Under the pieces are notes generated by a model, which did no database searches, had not been told where the DNA came from, and saw only the letters and a program-made list of their open reading frames with translations. Below are positions 2,291-49,763 of a stretch of 64,000 nt of DNA, piece after piece (position 1 is the stretch's first letter; each line of letters begins with the position of its first letter). The translations under genes and the position numbers were made by a program. Source of the stretch: Escherichia phage JS98. Where the stretch lies: the sequence record NC_010105.1; one strand, written 5' to 3'.

Positions 2291-2640
2291 GATTTACATT
2301 CCTTAATAAAGGTTTCAAGGTCATTACGGTTGGTTTGTTTTACATACTCATTATAATTAGCCATCTCTAAAGCATATCTCTTACGGATGGGAGCATTCAA
2401 AGCATTTGTATGGCAAATATCATACACGAGAGGGATAAAATAAGCCACGACGGCCGGAGCGATTATCATATAGAAACCCATCTCAATAGGCATGACTCCT
2501 TCGATTGCAGCCATAACTGTGGTCATTACCAGACCAACCAGACCGCCGAGCATACCTGTGACAATTCCCGTGAATAAGGAAATAGCAATATCATATTCAG
2601 CCAATTGATAAACATGCGATGAAAGACTAGGCCGTTCCAT
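2287..2640 (-). CDS. small integral membrane protein (about 117 aa, 3 predicted TM helices)
   Basis: ORF track start 2676 is TTG; ATG at 2640 with AGAGG SD; hydrophobic stretches ISLFTGIVTGMLGGLVGLVM, MGFYMIIAPAVVAYFIPLVY. Confidence 0.55.
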   Translation of the reverse strand: MERPSLSSHVYQLAEYDIAISLFTGIVTGMLGGLVGLVMTTVMAAIEGVMPIEMGFYMIIAPAVVAYFIPLVYDICHTNALNAPIRKRYALEMANYNEYVKQTNRNDLETFIKECKS

Positions 2641-3169
2641 TTTGAACCTCTTTAGCGTATTCACGGCATTCAGCAATAAAACGATTAAGCTTCCGTTGTT
2701 GTTTACGACTTTCTAATGTGTACTCAGCAGTTAAGATACCAAGCTCGGCTTTATCATAATTTTTAATATCGGTGTAAGATGGCCGACGGTCGACCATTCC
2801 AAATACATCACCATTTTCTAAAGCCACATAGCATACTAAATGGTAATCATCGTCTGCCATATTAAGAAGCACACAATCATTGCTCTCATTTAAAGAATAT
2901 ACTGAATAACGTAGTCCAGCGAATTCCACTCGTTGAATAGCCAGATTTACGTCAATAATTTCCAAAGCATCTTCAAAAGAAAGGTCTTCAGCTAAAGCAA
3001 AAATAAAAGGTAATTTGGTAGTATCGCCACGGCTAGATGTTCTGCTTAAGAAATCGTTTGAATAGCCTAGGTCTTGGCGAATTCTATAAAGAACTGAATT
3101 GGTTTCATGGGAAAGACCACTATTTTTAAACCAATCAATATTTGATATAAGGTTATCATATAAACTCAT
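2627..3169 (-). CDS. hypothetical protein (180 aa)
   Basis: ORF track; ATG with strong GGAGGAGAGGAG SD. Confidence 0.6.
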   Translation of the reverse strand: MSLYDNLISNIDWFKNSGLSHETNSVLYRIRQDLGYSNDFLSRTSSRGDTTKLPFIFALAEDLSFEDALEIIDVNLAIQRVEFAGLRYSVYSLNESNDCVLLNMADDDYHLVCYVALENGDVFGMVDRRPSYTDIKNYDKAELGILTAEYTLESRKQQRKLNRFIAECREYAKEVQNGTA

Positions 3170-4607: not shown

Positions 4608-4628
4608 TTTACTCTCCTTCACACTGTT

Positions 4629-4671
4629 GTTTTGATAGGTCTATAGTATCATGTTTAAAGGAGGTGTAAAC
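4629..4671 (-). promoter_or_regulatory. early promoter with conserved downstream box
   Basis: Minus strand GTTTAC-N17-TGaTACTAT followed by conserved AGACCTATCAAAAC. Confidence 0.5.
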
Positions 4672-4706
4672 AACTTTGTGAAATTATTTTTAGTTTAAAC
4701 CCCCTA

Positions 4707-4730: not shown

Positions 4731-5348
4731 TTATTTACGGGTCTTTTCGAACTGTGCTGCGTCACCTGCAAGGCGGCGGGCTTGACGAAGTTTGTTATCA
4801 ATTTCTTCGTGCATAGGCTGGGTATACTTAAGGCCTTCAACCGTCAGGTAAAGACGATAGAGGTCCGGGGTATCTAGGTTGTTAATGTGCTGCCCATTAC
4901 GAAGGGCGTTGAATTCTCGAACGAGTTGTTTAGTTTCGGATTCGATTTCAGAAACCAAAGAAGCCAGCTGGTTATATTTTTTAACAATAGTGCTGGTGTC
5001 GAACTTGATTTTAGGTTTAGGAGCTTCTTTTACAGGCTCTGCTTTAGGTGTAGGTTTCGGCGCTGCAACTTTGGTCTGAGCCGCGGGTTTAGAAACAGGA
5101 GCTTTAGCTGGTTTAGCAGGCTTAGTAGAGCCACCGGCTACGATATCTTTAAAAGCTTTGGAAGCTTTGTAATATTCTTTCTGGCTACTAGTATCAAAAC
5201 CATACATATCATAAACGTTTTTAAAGAACTCGGTAGTGGTTTTAGTCCCGGAAATTTTATCATAAGCAGCTTGCCACATATCTTTAGTCATGCGCACGCC
5301 GGCTTCATTCAGAACGCTTTCGTTCAAAAATTCATTGTAAGTTTTCAT
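4731..5348 (-). CDS. internal head protein (IPIII-like) with capsid-targeting sequence
   Basis: N-terminus MKTYNEFLNE matches T4 IP capsid-targeting sequence MKTYQEFIAE; Pro/Ala/Lys-rich basic segment; late promoter TATAAATA upstream; hairpin terminator downstream. Confidence 0.65.
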   Translation of the reverse strand: MKTYNEFLNESVLNEAGVRMTKDMWQAAYDKISGTKTTTEFFKNVYDMYGFDTSSQKEYYKASKAFKDIVAGGSTKPAKPAKAPVSKPAAQTKVAAPKPTPKAEPVKEAPKPKIKFDTSTIVKKYNQLASLVSEIESETKQLVREFNALRNGQHINNLDTPDLYRLYLTVEGLKYTQPMHEEIDNKLRQARRLAGDAAQFEKTRK

Positions 5349-5376
5349 TATTGTTTCCTGTGTTAATTAACTTATC

Positions 5377-5384
5377 TATTTATA
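5377..5384 (-). promoter_or_regulatory. late promoter TATAAATA (IPIII-like gene)
   Basis: Exact motif on minus strand immediately downstream of terminator hairpin. Confidence 0.55.
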
Positions 5385-5390
5385 CAAAAA

Positions 5391-5412
5391 GGCCCAACCT
5401 TTCGGAAGGGCC
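5391..5412 (-). terminator. rho-independent terminator (repeat copy 1)
   Basis: GGCCCAACCTTTCGGAAGGGCC; U-run on minus strand. Confidence 0.55.
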
Positions 5413-5417
5413 GTAAA

Positions 5418-5972
5418 TCAGTTCTTGTAGAACCGGAACGGGTTCACGTGGAAGGCCAACATAGCTTTAGGGATTTTACGAGACAAAAGACTCTTAAGCT
5501 TCCAGCCACAGTACACGCGAAGGTAAAATGTGATTCCGCCGACCTTAAGATAAGGAACTGAAGCAAATACACCCCAGGCGTCATCATTCCACATCCACAA
5601 CCAACCATGGTGAGCTTTATCAGGAGAACCTGATTCTACGTCAGGATTACCACGATAATGGAATTCCGAGCTACAATCACGGCCTAGTTTATGATAAGCA
5701 AAGTTATAAGCTTTATTTCGCCATAGCCAAGCTACTCTCTGGAGATAAACACCACCAGGCATTTTCCTGATTTTAGCCCAACGTTTAATATGACCTTTAT
5801 CGCCGTCAATTGGATTATCGTATGTCATCATCCAATCAAAACCGTATGGCAATTTACCAGTCTTTTTATTATGAAAAGGAACCACAAAAGGCGCAAGGAT
5901 AACGGCTAGAACCATAGAGATAAAATCTAGTGGGACCAACAGAATCCAACTCAAATATTTTAAAAGTTTCAT
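5418..5972 (-). CDS. membrane-anchored protein (184 aa), late-expressed, unknown function
   Basis: N-terminal hydrophobic helix LSWILLVPLDFISMVLAVILAPFVV; Trp-rich C-terminal domain; AGGAAA SD; TATAAATA late promoter upstream and identical hairpins on both flanks. Confidence 0.6.
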   Translation of the reverse strand: MKLLKYLSWILLVPLDFISMVLAVILAPFVVPFHNKKTGKLPYGFDWMMTYDNPIDGDKGHIKRWAKIRKMPGGVYLQRVAWLWRNKAYNFAYHKLGRDCSSEFHYRGNPDVESGSPDKAHHGWLWMWNDDAWGVFASVPYLKVGGITFYLRVYCGWKLKSLLSRKIPKAMLAFHVNPFRFYKN

Positions 5973-5998
5973 ATTATTTCCTAAGTTAGTTTACTGTA

Positions 5999-6006
5999 TA
6001 TTTATA
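5999..6006 (-). promoter_or_regulatory. late promoter TATAAATA (membrane protein gene 5418-5972)
   Basis: Exact motif on minus strand immediately downstream of terminator hairpin. Confidence 0.55.
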
Positions 6007-6013
6007 CAAAAAA

Positions 6014-6035
6014 GGCCCAACCTTTCGGAAGGGCC
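6014..6035 (-). terminator. rho-independent terminator (repeat copy 2)
   Basis: Identical 22-nt hairpin; U-run on minus strand. Confidence 0.55.
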
Positions 6036-6205
6036 TTTAACCTAGGGTAACCTTGTCGGGGTTCCACCTGCTAGGCAAGTGTTCTGTGCGCCGTTTCAGC
6101 TGTGAGATAAGGGACTTTAAGAGGAACTCATGTACTCCTTAAAGTCGGGTCTTATTCAGGGAACTTCAGTCCGACGACTTACCGGTAGCGACCCGGTTTC
6201 TTGTT

Positions 6206-6281
6206 TGGTCGAGACAGTAGGGATCGAACCTACGACCTACGGTTTAGAAGACCGTTGCTCTTCCTTCTGAGCTATGCCTCG
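6206..6281 (-). tRNA. tRNA-Arg (anticodon UCU)
   Basis: Cloverleaf readable: acceptor CGAGGCA/TGTCTCG, anticodon stem ACGGT/ACCGT with loop CTTCTAA, T-arm GGTTCGATCC, 3' CCA encoded. Confidence 0.75.
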
Positions 6282-6285
6282 TATT

Positions 6286-6360
6286 TGGCGGACATGCATG
6301 GATTCGAACCATGGACCAATTGATTAACAGTCAACTGCTCTACCGCTGAGCTACACATCC
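6286..6360 (-). tRNA. tRNA-Asn (anticodon GUU)
   Basis: 5' GGATGTGTAGCTCAGCGGTAGAGC..., anticodon loop CTGTTAA, T-arm GGTTCGAATCC, 3' CCA encoded. Confidence 0.75.
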
Positions 6361-6364
6361 AAAT

Positions 6365-6438
6365 TGGTGGCCCTGGGTGGAATCGAACCACCATCCAGCG
6401 ATTATGAGTCGCTCGCTTGACCGTCCAGCTACAGGGCC
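6365..6438 (-). tRNA. tRNA with CAU anticodon (Met, or Ile if lysidine-modified)
   Basis: Acceptor GGCCCTG/CAGGGCC, anticodon stem AGCGA/TCGCT with loop CTCATAA, T-arm GGTTCGATTCC, 3' CCA encoded. Confidence 0.75.
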
Positions 6439-8190: not shown

Positions 8191-8212
8191 TTTATTCTCC
8201 AATCACTCATTT

Positions 8213-8257
8213 GTTTTGATAGGGCTATAGTATCATCAACTAAAGCCCGTTGTAAAC
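8213..8257 (-). promoter_or_regulatory. early promoter with conserved downstream box
   Basis: Minus strand GTTTAC-N19-TACTAT-AGCCCTATCAAAAC. Confidence 0.45.
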
Positions 8258-8259
8258 AA

Positions 8260-8553
8260 TTATTTTGTAATTTCTTTGATTTTAGAAACTACTTTATCTT
8301 TGGTAAGACCGGAAAAAGTCTTATATTTTGTAAAGTGGATATCATCACCAAGATTAATATAATATTTCTTTTTAACCGTATTGAATGCTATACTAACAGG
8401 TTTACCATTTACTGTAATAGTAATTTGCTGAGCCTTATCAACATCACCTGAGCCAAAGGCTCTTTTAATATCGCTACTAATATCGGCCATAGCCGCTTTG
8501 TTAATGGAATACAAATCTGTCGATTCTTTGATAAATTCTTGATAAGTTTTCAT
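8260..8553 (-). CDS. internal head protein (IPI/IPII-like) with capsid-targeting sequence
   Basis: N-terminus MKTYQEFIKE matches T4 IP capsid-targeting sequence; position next to 57B corresponds to the hypervariable ipI locus of T4-like phages. Confidence 0.65.
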   Translation of the reverse strand: MKTYQEFIKESTDLYSINKAAMADISSDIKRAFGSGDVDKAQQITITVNGKPVSIAFNTVKKKYYINLGDDIHFTKYKTFSGLTKDKVVSKIKEITK

Positions 8554-8578
8554 TTTTTGTTTCCGTTAGGTTGGGTTT

Positions 8579-8621
8579 GTTTTGATAGGGCTATAGTATC
8601 ATGCCTATAGACCTTGTAAAC
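8579..8621 (-). promoter_or_regulatory. early promoter with conserved downstream box
   Basis: Minus strand GTTTAC-N17-TGaTACTAT-AGCCCTATCAAAAC. Confidence 0.5.
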
Positions 8622-8632
8622 ATCTTTTTAAA

Positions 8633-9516
<884 letters not shown>

Positions 9517-28719: not shown

Positions 28720-28720
28720 T

Positions 28721-28742
28721 AAAAGGGCTTCGGCCCTTTTTT
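28721..28742 (+). terminator. rho-independent terminator after wac
   Basis: AAAAGGGC-TTCG-GCCCTTTTTT. Confidence 0.6.
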
Positions 28743-28744
28743 GC

Positions 28745-28752
28745 TATAAATA
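28745..28752 (+). promoter_or_regulatory. late promoter TATAAATA (gene 13)
   Basis: Exact TATAAATA right after the wac terminator. Confidence 0.6.
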
Positions 28753-42102: not shown

Positions 42103-42117
42103 TTTTAATCTCCTCAT

Positions 42118-42161
42118 GTTTTGATAGGTCTATAGTAACATGTGATAACCTTGCTGTAAAC
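42118..42161 (-). promoter_or_regulatory. early promoter with conserved downstream box
   Basis: Minus strand GTTTAC-N18-TACTAT-AGACCTATCAAAAC. Confidence 0.45.
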
Positions 42162-42167
42162 AACTTT

Positions 42168-42175
42168 TATAAATA
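42168..42175 (+). promoter_or_regulatory. late promoter TATAAATA (gene 24)
   Basis: Exact motif. Confidence 0.6.
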
Positions 42176-42203
42176 AACATATACCCTCAATAAGGAAAGC
42201 GCA

Positions 42204-47814: not shown

Positions 47815-49311
47815 ATGCAAATTCAAGTACATTTTGATAATTTTAGTCATGTCCGTATCGAGTGTGATGAATCTACATTCTACGAACTCAGAGACTATTT
47901 TAGCTTTGAAGCTGATGGGTATAAATTCAACCCTAAATTTCGTTATGGGCAATGGGATGGACGTATTCGTCTTCTGGATTATAACCGTAAACTGCCTTAT
48001 GGACTTGTTCCTCAAATTAAAAAGTTCGCTGAACAATTTGAATATTCTCTGTGGATTGACCCACGTATTCTTGAACAGGAAGATATTTCTCGTGAAGATT
48101 TTGACTCATGGGTAGCTTCTCAAGAAATTTATTCAGGGTCTACCAAGATTGAGCCTCATTGGTATCAGAATGAAGCCGTATACAACGGCCTGACAAAACG
48201 TCGCGCAATTCTGAATTTACCTACATCCGCAGGTAAATCATTAATCCAGGCACTCCTGAGTCGATATTACGTTGAGAACTATGAAGGTAAAATCCTTATC
48301 TTAGTTCCTACTACTGCACTTGTCGACCAGATGATTAATGACTTCATTGATTATCGTTTGTTCCCTAAAGATGCTATGCTTGGTATTCGTTCAGGTACTG
48401 CTCGTGATTCCGATGCAATGATTTATGTTTCAACTTATCAAACGGCTATTAAACAACCTAAAGAATGGTTTGCTCAGTTTGGTATGTTTATGAACGACGA
48501 ATGCCATTTGGCAACAGGTAAATCAATTTCTACTATCATCGAAGGCCTAACCAATTGTATGTTTAAATTCGGTTTGTCTGGTTCTTTAAAAGATGGTAAA
48601 GCCAATTTAATGCAATATATGGGTTTATTTGGTGATGTGTTTAAGCCAGTATCCACTTCGCAGTTAATGGAAGAAGGACAGGTTACAGACCTTAAAATCA
48701 ACAGTATTTTCCTTCGGTACCCAGACGAATTCACTGTTAAGATGAAAGGTAAAGATTACCAATCAGAAATAAAGGTCATTACTAAGGCTACTCGTCGTAA
48801 TAAATGGGTTGCTAATTTAGCTGTTAAACTCGCTAAGAAAGAAGAGAACGTATTCCTGATGTTTAAAAACATCGAGCACGGTAAAACTCTTTTTGAAATG
48901 GTTAAAGAGCAACATAAAGAAGTTTATTACGTATCAGGTGAAGTTAATACCGAAACGCGTAATGCTCTGAAAGTAATGGCGGAAAATGGTAAGGGTATTA
49001 TTGTTGTGGCAAGTTATGGTGTGTTCTCTACTGGTATTTCCGTTAAGAACCTTCACCATGTTGTATTTGCTCATCCGGTAAAATCCAAAATCATTGTACT
49101 CCAGACAATCGGTCGTGTACTCCGTAAACATGCTTCTAAATCAACAGCACAAGTTTGGGACATTATAGACGACATGGGCGTTAAGCCTAAATCAGCAAAT
49201 GCTAAAAAGAAATATGTTCATTTGAATTATGCATTAAAACATGCCTTAGAACGTATTCAACGTTATGCTGACGAGAAATTTAATTACGTAATGAAACAGG
49301 TGGATTTATGA
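47815..49311 (+). CDS. uvsW: UvsW DNA/RNA helicase
   Basis: Near-identical to T4 UvsW as recalled (HWYQ, LNLPTSAGKS, DECH box); late promoter 47779-47786. Confidence 0.9.
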   Translation: MQIQVHFDNFSHVRIECDESTFYELRDYFSFEADGYKFNPKFRYGQWDGRIRLLDYNRKLPYGLVPQIKKFAEQFEYSLWIDPRILEQEDISREDFDSWVASQEIYSGSTKIEPHWYQNEAVYNGLTKRRAILNLPTSAGKSLIQALLSRYYVENYEGKILILVPTTALVDQMINDFIDYRLFPKDAMLGIRSGTARDSDAMIYVSTYQTAIKQPKEWFAQFGMFMNDECHLATGKSISTIIEGLTNCMFKFGLSGSLKDGKANLMQYMGLFGDVFKPVSTSQLMEEGQVTDLKINSIFLRYPDEFTVKMKGKDYQSEIKVITKATRRNKWVANLAVKLAKKEENVFLMFKNIEHGKTLFEMVKEQHKEVYYVSGEVNTETRNALKVMAENGKGIIVVASYGVFSTGISVKNLHHVVFAHPVKSKIIVLQTIGRVLRKHASKSTAQVWDIIDDMGVKPKSANAKKKYVHLNYALKHALERIQRYADEKFNYVMKQVDL

Positions 49312-49535
49312 AGTCCTTTAAAGAAGTTATCTATGAAGCCTCTATCGAGAGCTTCATGTCTAAAATTAGTTCCTGTCAGACCATGGAAGGTCTGGAGGAA
49401 TTAGAGAAGTATTACAAAACTCGTAGTAAGGAAGCCGAACTTCGTGATTCGGATGATATCAGCGTACGCGATGCATTGGCTGGTAAGAGAGCCGAATTGG
49501 AGTCGATGGACGACGAGGAAGAGGAAGATTTCTAA
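49308..49535 (+). CDS. uvsW.1: UvsW.1
   Basis: 75 aa with acidic C-terminus; ATGA overlap with uvsW. Confidence 0.75.
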   Translation: MKSFKEVIYEASIESFMSKISSCQTMEGLEELEKYYKTRSKEAELRDSDDISVRDALAGKRAELESMDDEEEEDF

Positions 49536-49543
49536 ACAAAAAG

Positions 49544-49565
49544 GGCCCAACCTTTCGGAAGGGCC
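49544..49565 (-). terminator. rho-independent terminator (repeat copy 3)
   Basis: Identical 22-nt hairpin after the uvsY operon; U-run on minus strand. Confidence 0.55.
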
Positions 49566-49595: not shown

Positions 49596-49763
49596 CTAAA
49601 GTAATAATTGTGTTTCGTTCAGCTGTTCTTCAGTGTTTTCCGTAACAGGCATGCTTTGAACGTAATTATAACATGAACCCGGATGAACCGGACCTTTTTC
49701 TGTTTCAACAACCAATGCAGCATCGATTGGAGTTTTACAGACAACGCAAATCTTATCTGACAT
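49596..49763 (-). CDS. small Cys-rich protein (55 aa), uvsY.-2 position
   Basis: Hand-translated: MSDKICVVCKTPIDAALVVETEKGPVHPGSCYNYVQSMPVTENTEEQLNETQLLL; AGGAGA SD; below ORF-track size cutoff. Confidence 0.5.
   Translation of the reverse strand: MSDKICVVCKTPIDAALVVETEKGPVHPGSCYNYVQSMPVTENTEEQLNETQLLL

What the first reader, a model, noticed from the sequence alone, without database searches (positions are those of the whole stretch)
5366..6040. Repeated 22-nt terminator hairpin plus late-promoter cassette flanking a late membrane-protein gene
The exact sequence GGCCCAACCTTTCGGAAGGGCC occurs three times (5391-5412, 6014-6035, 49544-49565), each functioning on the minus strand as a hairpin followed by a U-run. 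Two copies are immediately followed by minus-strand TATAAATA. Between the first two copies lies gene 5418-5972, encoding a 184-aa protein with one N-terminal transmembrane helix and a Trp-rich domain that I cannot match to a T4 protein (it does not resemble holin T as I recall it). Identical flanking repeats are a signature of cassette insertion or exchange by recombination between terminator-promoter modules.
Basis: seen in the sequence. Interest (0 to 1): 0.5.

Follow-up and report, generated by a model that had tools for sequence, protein, structure and literature searches.

The report
Hairpin-flanked mobile late-gene cassette
In this T4-like (Dhakavirus) phage, a gene for an uncharacterised membrane protein lies between two identical terminator-hairpin-plus-late-promoter modules, and relatives show these hairpins are where the gene has been inserted, lost and reshuffled; this style of phage genome shuffling is already known, here with a late promoter.

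Summary
GGCCCAACCTTTCGGAAGGGCC occurs exactly three times (5391, 6014, 49544), against none expected by chance. On the minus strand each copy folds into a GAAA-loop hairpin followed by a U-run. Two copies abut TATAAATA.

The window is a Dhakavirus, 99% identical to phage UP19. The hairpin at 6014 ends the tRNA/rnaD operon, and the one at 49544 ends uvsY.-2.

The 184-aa gene belongs to Pfam DUF7338. It has one N-terminal membrane helix, a confidently predicted structure with no match among solved structures, and no known function.

- IME08-type relatives have one hairpin-promoter module and no gene.
- JS10/MX01-type and window-type relatives combine the gene with different downstream genes, and the sequences diverge right after the repeat.
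- In Mosigvirus the same unit (late promoter, leader, gene, hairpin; 623 bp) sits at another locus, after rI, between two hairpins. RB69 has a single hairpin there.

This is a late-promoter counterpart of the published PeSL/PmSL regulatory cassettes, a modest variant of a known mechanism. What DUF7338 does remains open. It often sits next to tail-fibre and lysis genes in other phages, which hints at a role at the cell envelope.

The parts
6206..6438 (-). tRNA-Met, tRNA-Asn and tRNA-Arg cluster upstream of the cassette
   Evidence: ARAGORN; Rfam tRNA matches
6036..6205 (-). Non-coding stable-RNA region. It is a homologue of T4 rnaD (species 2 RNA) plus the conserved 3' trailer. The rnaC segment present in T4 is absent.
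   Evidence: Alignment with T4-type fPS-90 and IME08; T4 annotation of rnaC and rnaD; no Rfam family
6014..6035 (-). Hairpin copy 2. An intrinsic-terminator-like stem-loop (GAAA loop) followed by U6 (6008-6013), at the end of the tRNA/rnaD operon. The position is conserved in all Dhakavirus and T4-type relatives examined.
5999..6006 (-). T4-type late promoter TATAAATA for the DUF7338 gene, followed by the leader and Shine-Dalgarno sequence AGGAAA
   Evidence: The leader is conserved in the Mosigvirus cassette.
5418..5972 (-). 184-aa DUF7338 protein: one N-terminal transmembrane helix plus a Trp-rich alpha/beta domain of unknown function
5391..5412 (-). Hairpin copy 1, followed by U5 (5386-5390). 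It terminates the DUF7338 gene and is the downstream boundary of the cassette.
5377..5384 (-). Second late promoter TATAAATA, serving the 205-aa gene
4731..5348 (-). 205-aa internal-head-protein-like late gene. Its N-terminus MKTYNEFLNESVLNE resembles the capsid-targeting sequence of T4 internal proteins. It is present or absent independently of the DUF7338 gene.
   Evidence: phrog_2280; N-terminal DNA repeat shared with the window's internal-protein genes (family D10); weak homology to fPS-90 g136c and g135c
4627..4689 (-). Repeated early-promoter module upstream of the e.8 homologue. It is a PeSL-like element and the next possible shuffling joint.
   Evidence: family D6 (4 copies); JS10 and MX01 carry the same promoter directly after the DUF7338 hairpin
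49544..49565 (-). Hairpin copy 3. It terminates uvsY.-2 (49596-49763, minus strand) at the convergent junction with uvsW.1 (49308-49535, plus strand). No late promoter follows it.
   Evidence: The T4 orthologous site has the same stem with a TTTTT loop.

Best explanation
What is read from the sequence. The 22-nt element is a Rho-independent terminator hairpin: GC stem, UU/UU internal loop, GAAA tetraloop and U-run. At two sites it is fused to a T4-type late promoter (TATAAATA), forming a 36-37-nt composite module that ends one transcript and starts a late one. The copy at 6014 is the resident terminator of the tRNA/rnaD operon. The copy at 5391 closes a 623-bp single-gene unit made of late promoter, leader, DUF7338 ORF and hairpin.

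What comparison with relatives shows. The repeated module is the joint at which this unit is present, absent or combined with different neighbours.

The inferred mechanism. Homologous recombination between hairpin/promoter copies is the likely cause. Two routes fit: unequal or looping-out exchange during co-infection, or excision and re-integration of a small circle carrying one hairpin. This is a late-promoter counterpart of the PeSL/PmSL cassettes of T4-type phages.

The cargo. The protein is predicted to be made late and anchored in the inner membrane by its N-terminal helix. Its function is unknown. My best guess, at low confidence (about 0.3), is an enzyme or binding protein acting at the cell envelope, for example in receptor modification or superinfection exclusion.
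For: The repeat and its structure.
- Exact triple repeat, with zero copies expected by chance.
- Stable hairpin followed by a U-run.
- TATAAATA directly after two of the copies.
- The homologous site in T4-type phage fPS-90 is annotated as terminator plus late promoter.

Dhakavirus locus.
- IME08 type: one module and no DUF7338, with a hybrid junction. Eight records match an artificial empty-site query full-length in a single piece.
- Window type: 10 records.
- JS10/MX01 type: DUF7338, hairpin, then an early promoter and different genes. There are 20-24 such records, and they diverge from the window right after the hairpin and T-run.
- vB_EcoM_005: the gene lies downstream of an internal-protein-like gene rather than upstream.

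Second locus, second genus.
- RB69: rI, hairpin, early promoter, mobD.2a.
- LF82-5: rI, hairpin, late promoter, DUF7338, hairpin, early promoter, mobD.2a. Its flanks closely match RB69's, and the insert is 623 bp.
- In the two-genus alignment, the hairpin core, T-run, TATAAATA and much of the leader are nearly invariant while the ORF differs at many positions (75% amino-acid identity).

Same theme in T4 types.
- fPS-90 has an internal-protein-like gene between two identical AGCCCCGACCGAAAGGTTGGGGCT hairpins.
- T4 itself has one hairpin and neither gene. Its junction lies in the shared GGGCTTTTTGGTAT.

Precedent. PeSL and PmSL cassettes, with mini-circles shown experimentally (PMC2839356, PMC4122927).

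The cargo protein.
- Pfam DUF7338.
- Invariant polar and aromatic motifs.
- Mean pLDDT 94.
- No fold match in the PDB.
- In distant members, the gene lies directly after tail-fibre genes in four contexts, and before lysis genes in two of them.
Against: - There are no transcript or recombination data. Terminator and promoter activity are read from sequence only.
- The shared homology is short (22-37 bp). Terminators are also under functional constraint, so some of the identity could be maintained by selection rather than by exchange.
- The direction of each event (insertion or deletion) cannot be decided from the comparisons.
- STP4-a, RB43 and Felixounavirus carry DUF7338 without this hairpin. 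In vB_EcoM_005 the gene is preceded by a different short hairpin and no late promoter. The hairpin is therefore not an obligatory part of the gene's mobility.
- Whole genomes hold only 2-3 copies of the module, so this is not a dispersed high-copy element.
- The functional guess for DUF7338 rests only on gene neighbourhood and residue composition.
Confidence: 0.8

Rival explanations
1. The three hairpins are independent, functionally selected terminators that happen to be identical. The gene is an ordinary resident, and its patchy distribution reflects unrelated deletions.
For: Terminators are constrained. The hairpin at 6014 and the one at 49544 occupy positions that are also terminators in T4. 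There are only 2-3 copies per genome.
Against: Empty sites at two different loci in two genera retain exactly one hairpin with both flanks intact. Different architectures diverge immediately after the repeat. The two copies flanking the gene share the lineage-specific stem variant: GGCCC in most Dhakavirus genomes examined and GCCCC in Mosigvirus, with IME341 (L012) carrying one of each. A 22-nt exact triple match is not expected by chance.
Confidence: 0.05
2. Exchange is driven by homing-endonuclease double-strand breaks in the neighbouring tRNA region (SegB type). Flanking markers are co-converted, and the hairpins are simply the nearest patches of homology where repair tracts end.
For: T4 has segB inside the tRNA cluster. 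Dhakavirus AnYang has a 221-aa homing endonuclease about 380 bp upstream of the cassette, and IME540 also has one under the match.
Against: The window, UP19, JS10 and IME08 have no endonuclease gene at this locus. The Mosigvirus rI-locus stretch shown has no annotated homing endonuclease. This rival concerns the trigger and is compatible with the main explanation, in which the hairpins remain the crossover points.
Confidence: 0.2
3. The hairpin is a structure-specific recombination site, as attC sites are in integrons, or a cruciform cut by endonuclease VII. It is not merely a short homology.
For: Joints fall at or immediately after the hairpin-T-run-promoter module wherever they can be placed. 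The conserved UU/UU internal loop is preserved across genera while the outer stem co-varies. The PeSL authors left site-specific recombination open as a possibility.
Against: No integrase or recombinase is associated with the cassette. The T4 deletion junction lies in the T-run and adjacent bases between two different hairpins, which suits plain microhomology. The conserved internal loop may reflect terminator function.
Confidence: 0.08
4. On the protein's function: DUF7338 is a holin or another lysis-timing protein.
For: It has a late promoter and a single N-terminal membrane helix with a large C-terminal domain, which is the architecture of T4 holin T. Some Felixounavirus records call it 'holin'. 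It follows rI in Mosigvirus and precedes a holin and lysozyme in one contig.
Confidence: 0.12

Closest known systems
PeSL and PmSL regulatory cassettes of T4-type phages (Arbiol, Comeau & Krisch 2010, PMC2839356; Comeau, Arbiol & Krisch 2014, PMC4122927)
   Same: A stem-loop terminator is fused to a promoter in the intergenic spaces of hyperplastic regions. Near-identical copies flank single accessory ORFs. Close relatives differ by insertion, deletion or replacement with joints in the element. The empty-site and filled-site logic matches their ORF192 example.
   Different: The promoter here is the gp55-type late promoter TATAAATA, not a sigma-70-like early promoter or a MotA middle promoter. 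The homology is shorter (36-37 nt). Only 2-3 copies occur per genome. The same cassette is seen at two different loci in two genera. Mini-circles were not tested.
Polymorphism of the internal-protein locus in T-even phages (Repoila et al. 1994, as cited in PMC4122927; details from my own knowledge)
   Same: Variable late genes next to the tRNA/ipI/57 region are swapped between relatives at conserved regulatory and N-terminal sequences. The 205-aa neighbour is an internal-protein-like gene with a capsid-targeting N-terminus.
   Different: The cargo in question is a membrane protein without a capsid-targeting sequence. The joint is a terminator hairpin, not the sequence encoding the capsid-targeting peptide.
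Integron gene cassettes (ORF plus a hairpin-forming attC site)
   Same: A single ORF travels with one imperfect hairpin, and insertion at a resident hairpin leaves the ORF flanked by two copies.
   Different: There is no integrase. This cassette carries its own promoter. The hairpin doubles as a terminator. The mechanism is probably general homologous recombination.
Morons of lambdoid and P2-like phages (autonomous promoter-gene-terminator units)
   Same: A self-contained transcription unit with an accessory, often envelope-related, gene and a patchy distribution. Distant DUF7338 genes sit at typical moron positions after tail-fibre genes or at a prophage end.
   Different: Classical morons are expressed from the prophage. 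This one is in a virulent phage and uses a late promoter.

Membership tests
PeSL-type regulatory cassette | Stem-loop terminator immediately upstream of a promoter in one compact intergenic module | tested here: met
   Hairpin, U5-6, G and TATAAATA within 37 nt
PeSL-type regulatory cassette | The promoter is a strong sigma-70-like early promoter (-35 and -10 boxes) | tested here: not met
   The promoter is the T4 late consensus TATAAATA with no -35 box. The scan lists only a 9-of-12 chance-level sigma-70-like match overlapping the module at 5973-6000. This makes it a variant, as PmSL is for middle promoters.
PeSL-type regulatory cassette | Several near-identical copies flank variable ORFs in hyperplastic regions | tested here: met
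   Two copies flank DUF7338 in the tRNA-e region, and relatives differ at this spot
PeSL-type regulatory cassette | Indels or replacements between close relatives have their joints in the element | tested here: met
PeSL-type regulatory cassette | Excision as mini-circles during infection | not testable with these tools
   Needs inverse PCR on infected cells or phage stocks
Rho-independent terminator | GC-rich stem-loop followed by a U-tract on the transcribed strand | tested here: met
   -14.7 to -17.9 kcal/mol hairpin followed by U5-U6. The simple scanner missed it because of the internal loop. Activity in vivo was not tested.
T4 late promoter | TATAAATA about 25-40 nt upstream of a late gene's start codon | tested here: met
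   Sites at 5999-6006 and 5377-5384, with the ATGs 26 and 28 nt downstream. Dependence on gp55/gp33/gp45 was not tested.
Pfam DUF7338 (PF24027) | Full-length HMM match above the gathering score | tested here: met
   212.6 bits against a cut-off of 27, covering residues 1-183
T4 holin T and other holin families | Sequence or fold similarity to a holin family | tested here: not met
T4 internal head proteins (the 205-aa neighbour) | N-terminal capsid-targeting sequence MKTYxEF(I/L)xE with a (L/I)xE protease site | tested here: met
   MKTYNEFLNESVLNE, compared with the window's internal proteins MKTYQEFIKE and [10 protein letters not shown]. Packaging and cleavage were not tested.
Integron cassette | An associated tyrosine-recombinase integrase and an attC site with extrahelical bases | not tested
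   None of the record annotations I read for this locus names an integrase. The rest of the window was not screened.

The most novel reading that the evidence does not exclude
The unit made of late promoter, leader, DUF7338 and hairpin is a self-contained mobile cassette. It integrates at any resident terminator of the GGCCC/GCCCC-TTCCGAAAGGTT family through a circular intermediate, as a phage counterpart of integron cassettes. Its cargo is a new-fold periplasmic enzyme made late in infection that alters a cell-envelope receptor, giving superinfection exclusion or protecting progeny from adsorbing to debris.
Probability: 0.15. Interest if true: 0.6.

Novelty: new variant of a known kind. Interest (0 to 1): 0.3.

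Why it matters
This locus gives a clean natural example of how virulent T4-type phages gain and lose accessory genes, with empty and filled sites at two loci in two genera. It extends the PeSL/PmSL idea to late promoters.

It also singles out DUF7338 for experiment. The family is large: 850 clusters at 50% identity and 591 phage records. It has a confident predicted structure, no solved relative and no known function. Its recurrent position next to tail-fibre and lysis genes suggests a role at the cell envelope.

None of this overturns current understanding.

Tried and rejected
- **Function by sequence libraries.** PADLOC and NCBIfam gave nothing. A PDB sequence profile search gave only noise.
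- **Domain fusions.** Among 850 representative clusters, the five longest listed members (219-288 aa) carry only DUF7338.
- **Literature.** Nothing was found for DUF7338, PF24027, phrog_2143 or the locus tags.
- **Exact 22-mer in IMG/VR.** This mostly recovered the same isolate genomes, plus two unrelated contigs where the hairpin occurs in a different sequence context.
- **Neighbourhoods of three further homologues.** Uninformative.
- **Holin-T identity.** Rejected, as explained under the rival explanations.
- **Tandem duplication.** Rejected as the origin of the repeat, because the sequence between the copies is not duplicated.
- **Rfam.** No family matches the rnaD-like RNA.

Full report
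**1. The observation**

The 22-mer GGCCCAACCTTTCGGAAGGGCC occurs exactly three times in the 64-kb window, at 5391, 6014 and 49544. No further copies appear even with three mismatches allowed, and none appear in 100 shuffles.

- Read on the minus strand, each copy is GGCCC-UU-CC-GAAA-GG-UU-GGGCC. It folds at -14.7 to -17.9 kcal/mol and is followed by U5-U6.
- At 5391 and 6014 the U-run is followed by G and then TATAAATA, so the real direct repeat is 36-37 nt. The two hairpins start 623 nt apart.
- The simple terminator scanner missed the element because of its internal loop.
- The ORF at 5418-5972 (-) encodes 184 aa with one hydrophobic N-terminal segment and 10 Trp.

**2. Where the window comes from**

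The window is a Dhakavirus, a T4-like member of the Straboviridae. It is 99% identical to phage UP19 over the 1.8 kb around the finding.

On the minus strand the order is:
- tRNA-Met, tRNA-Asn and tRNA-Arg;
- about 170 nt of non-coding RNA;
- hairpin at 6014 plus late promoter;
- the 184-aa gene;
- hairpin at 5391 plus late promoter;
- a 205-aa gene;
- an early promoter, the e.8 homologue, a 132-aa gene and then the rest of the e region (e.6 follows in the annotated relatives JS10, IME08 and MX01).

Details on the neighbours:
- The non-coding RNA aligns with T4 rnaD and the trailer that follows rnaC in T4. The rnaC segment itself is missing.
- The 205-aa protein begins MKTYNEFLNESVLNE. This is the capsid-targeting motif of T4 internal proteins, shared with the window's own internal-protein genes. 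A late promoter in front of it is therefore expected.
- The hairpin at 49544 lies between the convergent genes uvsW.1 and uvsY.-2. T4 has an orthologous hairpin there with the same stem and a TTTTT loop.

**3. Comparative genomics of the Dhakavirus locus**

Four architectures occur downstream of the same tRNA/rnaD trailer.

| Type | Order downstream of the rnaD trailer | Example phages | Records |
|---|---|---|---|
| a, window type | hairpin + late promoter / DUF7338 / hairpin + late promoter / 205-aa gene | UP19, IME281, MN04, EcWhh-1, KIT01, AnYang, NC-G, Esco_phi_B-01 | 10 |
| b, IME08 type | one hairpin + late promoter, then the 205-aa gene directly; no DUF7338 | IME08, dhaeg, dhabil, CLB_P2, SHP1, C6 | 8 |
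| c, JS10/MX01 type | hairpin + late promoter / DUF7338 / hairpin / early promoter / 132-aa gene (JS10) or e.8 (MX01) | JS10, MX01, QL01, WG01 and others | 20-24 |
| d, vB_EcoM_005 | hairpin + late promoter / 157-aa internal-protein-like gene / short different hairpin / DUF7338 / hairpin / early promoter | vB_EcoM_005 | 2 (one phage) |

- In type b, the left flank of the single module is that of the copy at 6014 and the right flank is that of the copy at 5391.
- In every pairwise comparison the sequences are collinear up to the hairpin, T-run and promoter, and unrelated beyond it.
- Type a is what a crossover inside the hairpin between a type-c and a type-b genome would produce.
- Type b is what a crossover between the two copies of type a would leave behind.

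**4. A second locus in a second genus**

In Mosigvirus LF82-5 the DUF7338 gene (75% amino-acid identity) is not near the tRNAs. It lies after rI, flanked on both sides by AGCCCCTTCCGAAAGGTTGGGGCT. This is the same inner hairpin with a co-varying outer stem.

- The upstream copy is followed by TTTTTGTATAAATA and a leader that resembles the Dhakavirus one. The downstream copy is followed by the early promoter of mobD.2a.
- RB69 and most of about 155 Mosigvirus records have rI, one hairpin, the early promoter and mobD.2a, with closely matching flanks. In the sampled rows, 26 of 28 Mosigvirus records were of this single-piece empty type. The filled genomes are 623 bp longer at this point.
- The unit made of late promoter, leader, ORF and hairpin is therefore found at two different resident terminators. 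Each time the hairpin is duplicated.

T4-type phages show the same theme with other cargo.
- fPS-90 has an internal-protein-like gene between two identical AGCCCCGACCGAAAGGTTGGGGCT hairpins.
- T4 itself has one hairpin and neither gene, with the junction in the shared GGGCTTTTTGGTAT.

**5. Mechanism**

What the sequence shows: the repeats, their fold and U-runs, the late-promoter consensus, and the empty, filled and recombinant architectures.

What I infer:
- The hairpin terminates transcription and TATAAATA starts late transcription.
- The joints arise by homologous recombination between copies, either directly or through a small circle carrying one hairpin. Such circles were demonstrated for PeSLs in RB49 and phi1 (PMC2839356).

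What remains open:
- The direction of individual events cannot be read from the data. The rarity of the filled state in Mosigvirus favours gain there.
- A SegB-like homing endonuclease lies next to the cassette in AnYang and in T4. It could supply the initiating breaks in some lineages.
- A structure-specific role for the hairpin cannot be excluded, but it is not needed to explain the data.

**6. The cargo protein**

- It matches Pfam DUF7338 over its full length and phrog_2143.
- The family is large: 591 phage records and 850 representative clusters at 50% identity.
- It spans T4-like genera, Felixounavirus, jumbo phages, Pseudomonas and Aeromonas phages, and proteobacterial prophages.
- Thirty homologues share invariant residues within the motifs TYDNPIDGDxGH, WLWRNKAYNF and GWKLK, and a conserved C-terminal HINPF motif in which only the proline is invariant.
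- AlphaFold2 gives a mean pLDDT of 94. The model has a long N-terminal helix, short helices and an antiparallel sheet.
- No defence, NCBIfam or holin family matches, and I found no paper on the family.

Gene neighbourhood is the only functional lead.
- In four unrelated contexts the gene lies directly after tail-fibre or tail-fibre-assembly genes.
- In one of these it lies just before a holin, lysozyme and spanin cassette, and in another one gene before an endolysin.
- In Mosigvirus it follows rI.
- In Felixounavirus Alf5 it sits inside the tRNA array.

Taken with the late promoter, the membrane anchor and the aromatic and acidic invariant residues, I favour a role at the cell envelope, such as receptor modification or exclusion, at about 0.3. 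A lysis-related role comes second.

**7. Comparison with what is known, and verdict**

The closest known system is the PeSL/PmSL family of composite terminator-promoter cassettes.
- This element meets the criteria of architecture, location, repetition and breakpoints.
- It fails the early-promoter criterion, because it carries the late promoter.
- The 2010 paper does not contain the phrase "late promoter". The parts of the 2014 paper I read describe only early and middle versions.

I therefore rate it a new variant of a known kind.

The most useful outputs are the well-documented empty and filled sites at two loci, and the flagging of DUF7338 as a widespread family with no solved structural relative and no known function. 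Interest is 0.3.

Noticed in passing
window 6036-6205 (-): The non-coding stretch after tRNA-Arg is a homologue of the T4 stable RNA rnaD (species 2) plus the conserved trailer. The roughly 147-nt rnaC (species 1) segment of T4-type phages is absent in the window and in IME08. No Rfam family covers it. The fold z-score is only -2.05.
   Followed up: partly
window 4731-5348 (-): The 205-aa late gene is internal-head-protein-like. It has the capsid-targeting N-terminus MKTYNEFLNESVLNE and a Pro/Ala/Lys-rich middle. It is weakly related to two paralogous genes at the same place in T4-type phage fPS-90 (g136c and g135c) that T4 itself lacks.
   Followed up: partly
window 4627-4689, 8211-8273, 8577-8639, 42116-42178: A family of four repeated roughly 63-nt early-promoter modules (minus-strand GTTTAC ... 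TATAGACCTATCAAAACAA). These resemble classical PeSL promoters. One lies directly downstream of the 205-aa gene.
   Followed up: no
window 28720-28752 (+): A second kind of terminator-plus-late-promoter composite: a GGGCUUCGGCCC hairpin (UUCG loop), a U-run and then TATAAATA, inside the late structural region.
   Followed up: no
window 49544-49565 compared with T4 (L032 1950-1975): The uvsY.-2 terminator of T4 has the same stem (GGCCCTTCC...GGTTGGGCC) but a TTTTT loop. The T4 tRNA-locus hairpin has the GAAA loop with a different stem. In Dhakavirus both loci carry one identical 22-mer, which suggests homogenisation (gene conversion) between terminators 43 kb apart.
   Followed up: partly
L021 (Felixounavirus Alf5) 2501-3058; L020 (RB43); L019 (STP4-a): DUF7338 genes repeatedly sit in or beside tRNA gene arrays in unrelated phages. 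In Alf5 the gene lies between tRNA-Leu and tRNA-Gln with 21-nt and 8-nt spacers. This may simply reflect tRNA arrays being recombination hot spots.
   Followed up: no
L024, L027, L034, L035: In distant prophage or metagenomic members, DUF7338 lies immediately after tail-fibre or tail-fibre-assembly genes. In L035 it is immediately followed by a holin, lysozyme and spanin cassette. In L034 an endolysin (Peptidase_M15_4) lies one gene downstream.
   Followed up: partly
L033 (AnYang) 2443-3108: A 221-aa homing endonuclease, the same size as T4 SegB, is inserted in the tRNA region about 380 bp upstream of the cassette in some Dhakaviruses. It is absent from the window.
   Followed up: no
window 12239/12261, 47779/47800, 51418/51421: Back-to-back divergent late promoters (TATAAATA on both strands within about 20 nt) at the junctions of oppositely oriented late gene blocks.
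   Followed up: no
L012 (IME341) 479-1150: This Dhakavirus has the Mosigvirus/T4-type stem variant (AGCCCC...GGGGCT) upstream of DUF7338 and the GGCCC variant downstream. Its leader looks like a hybrid of the 205-aa and 184-aa leaders, and the promoter box is degenerate (TAATAAATA). It looks like a footprint of recombination inside the module.
   Followed up: no
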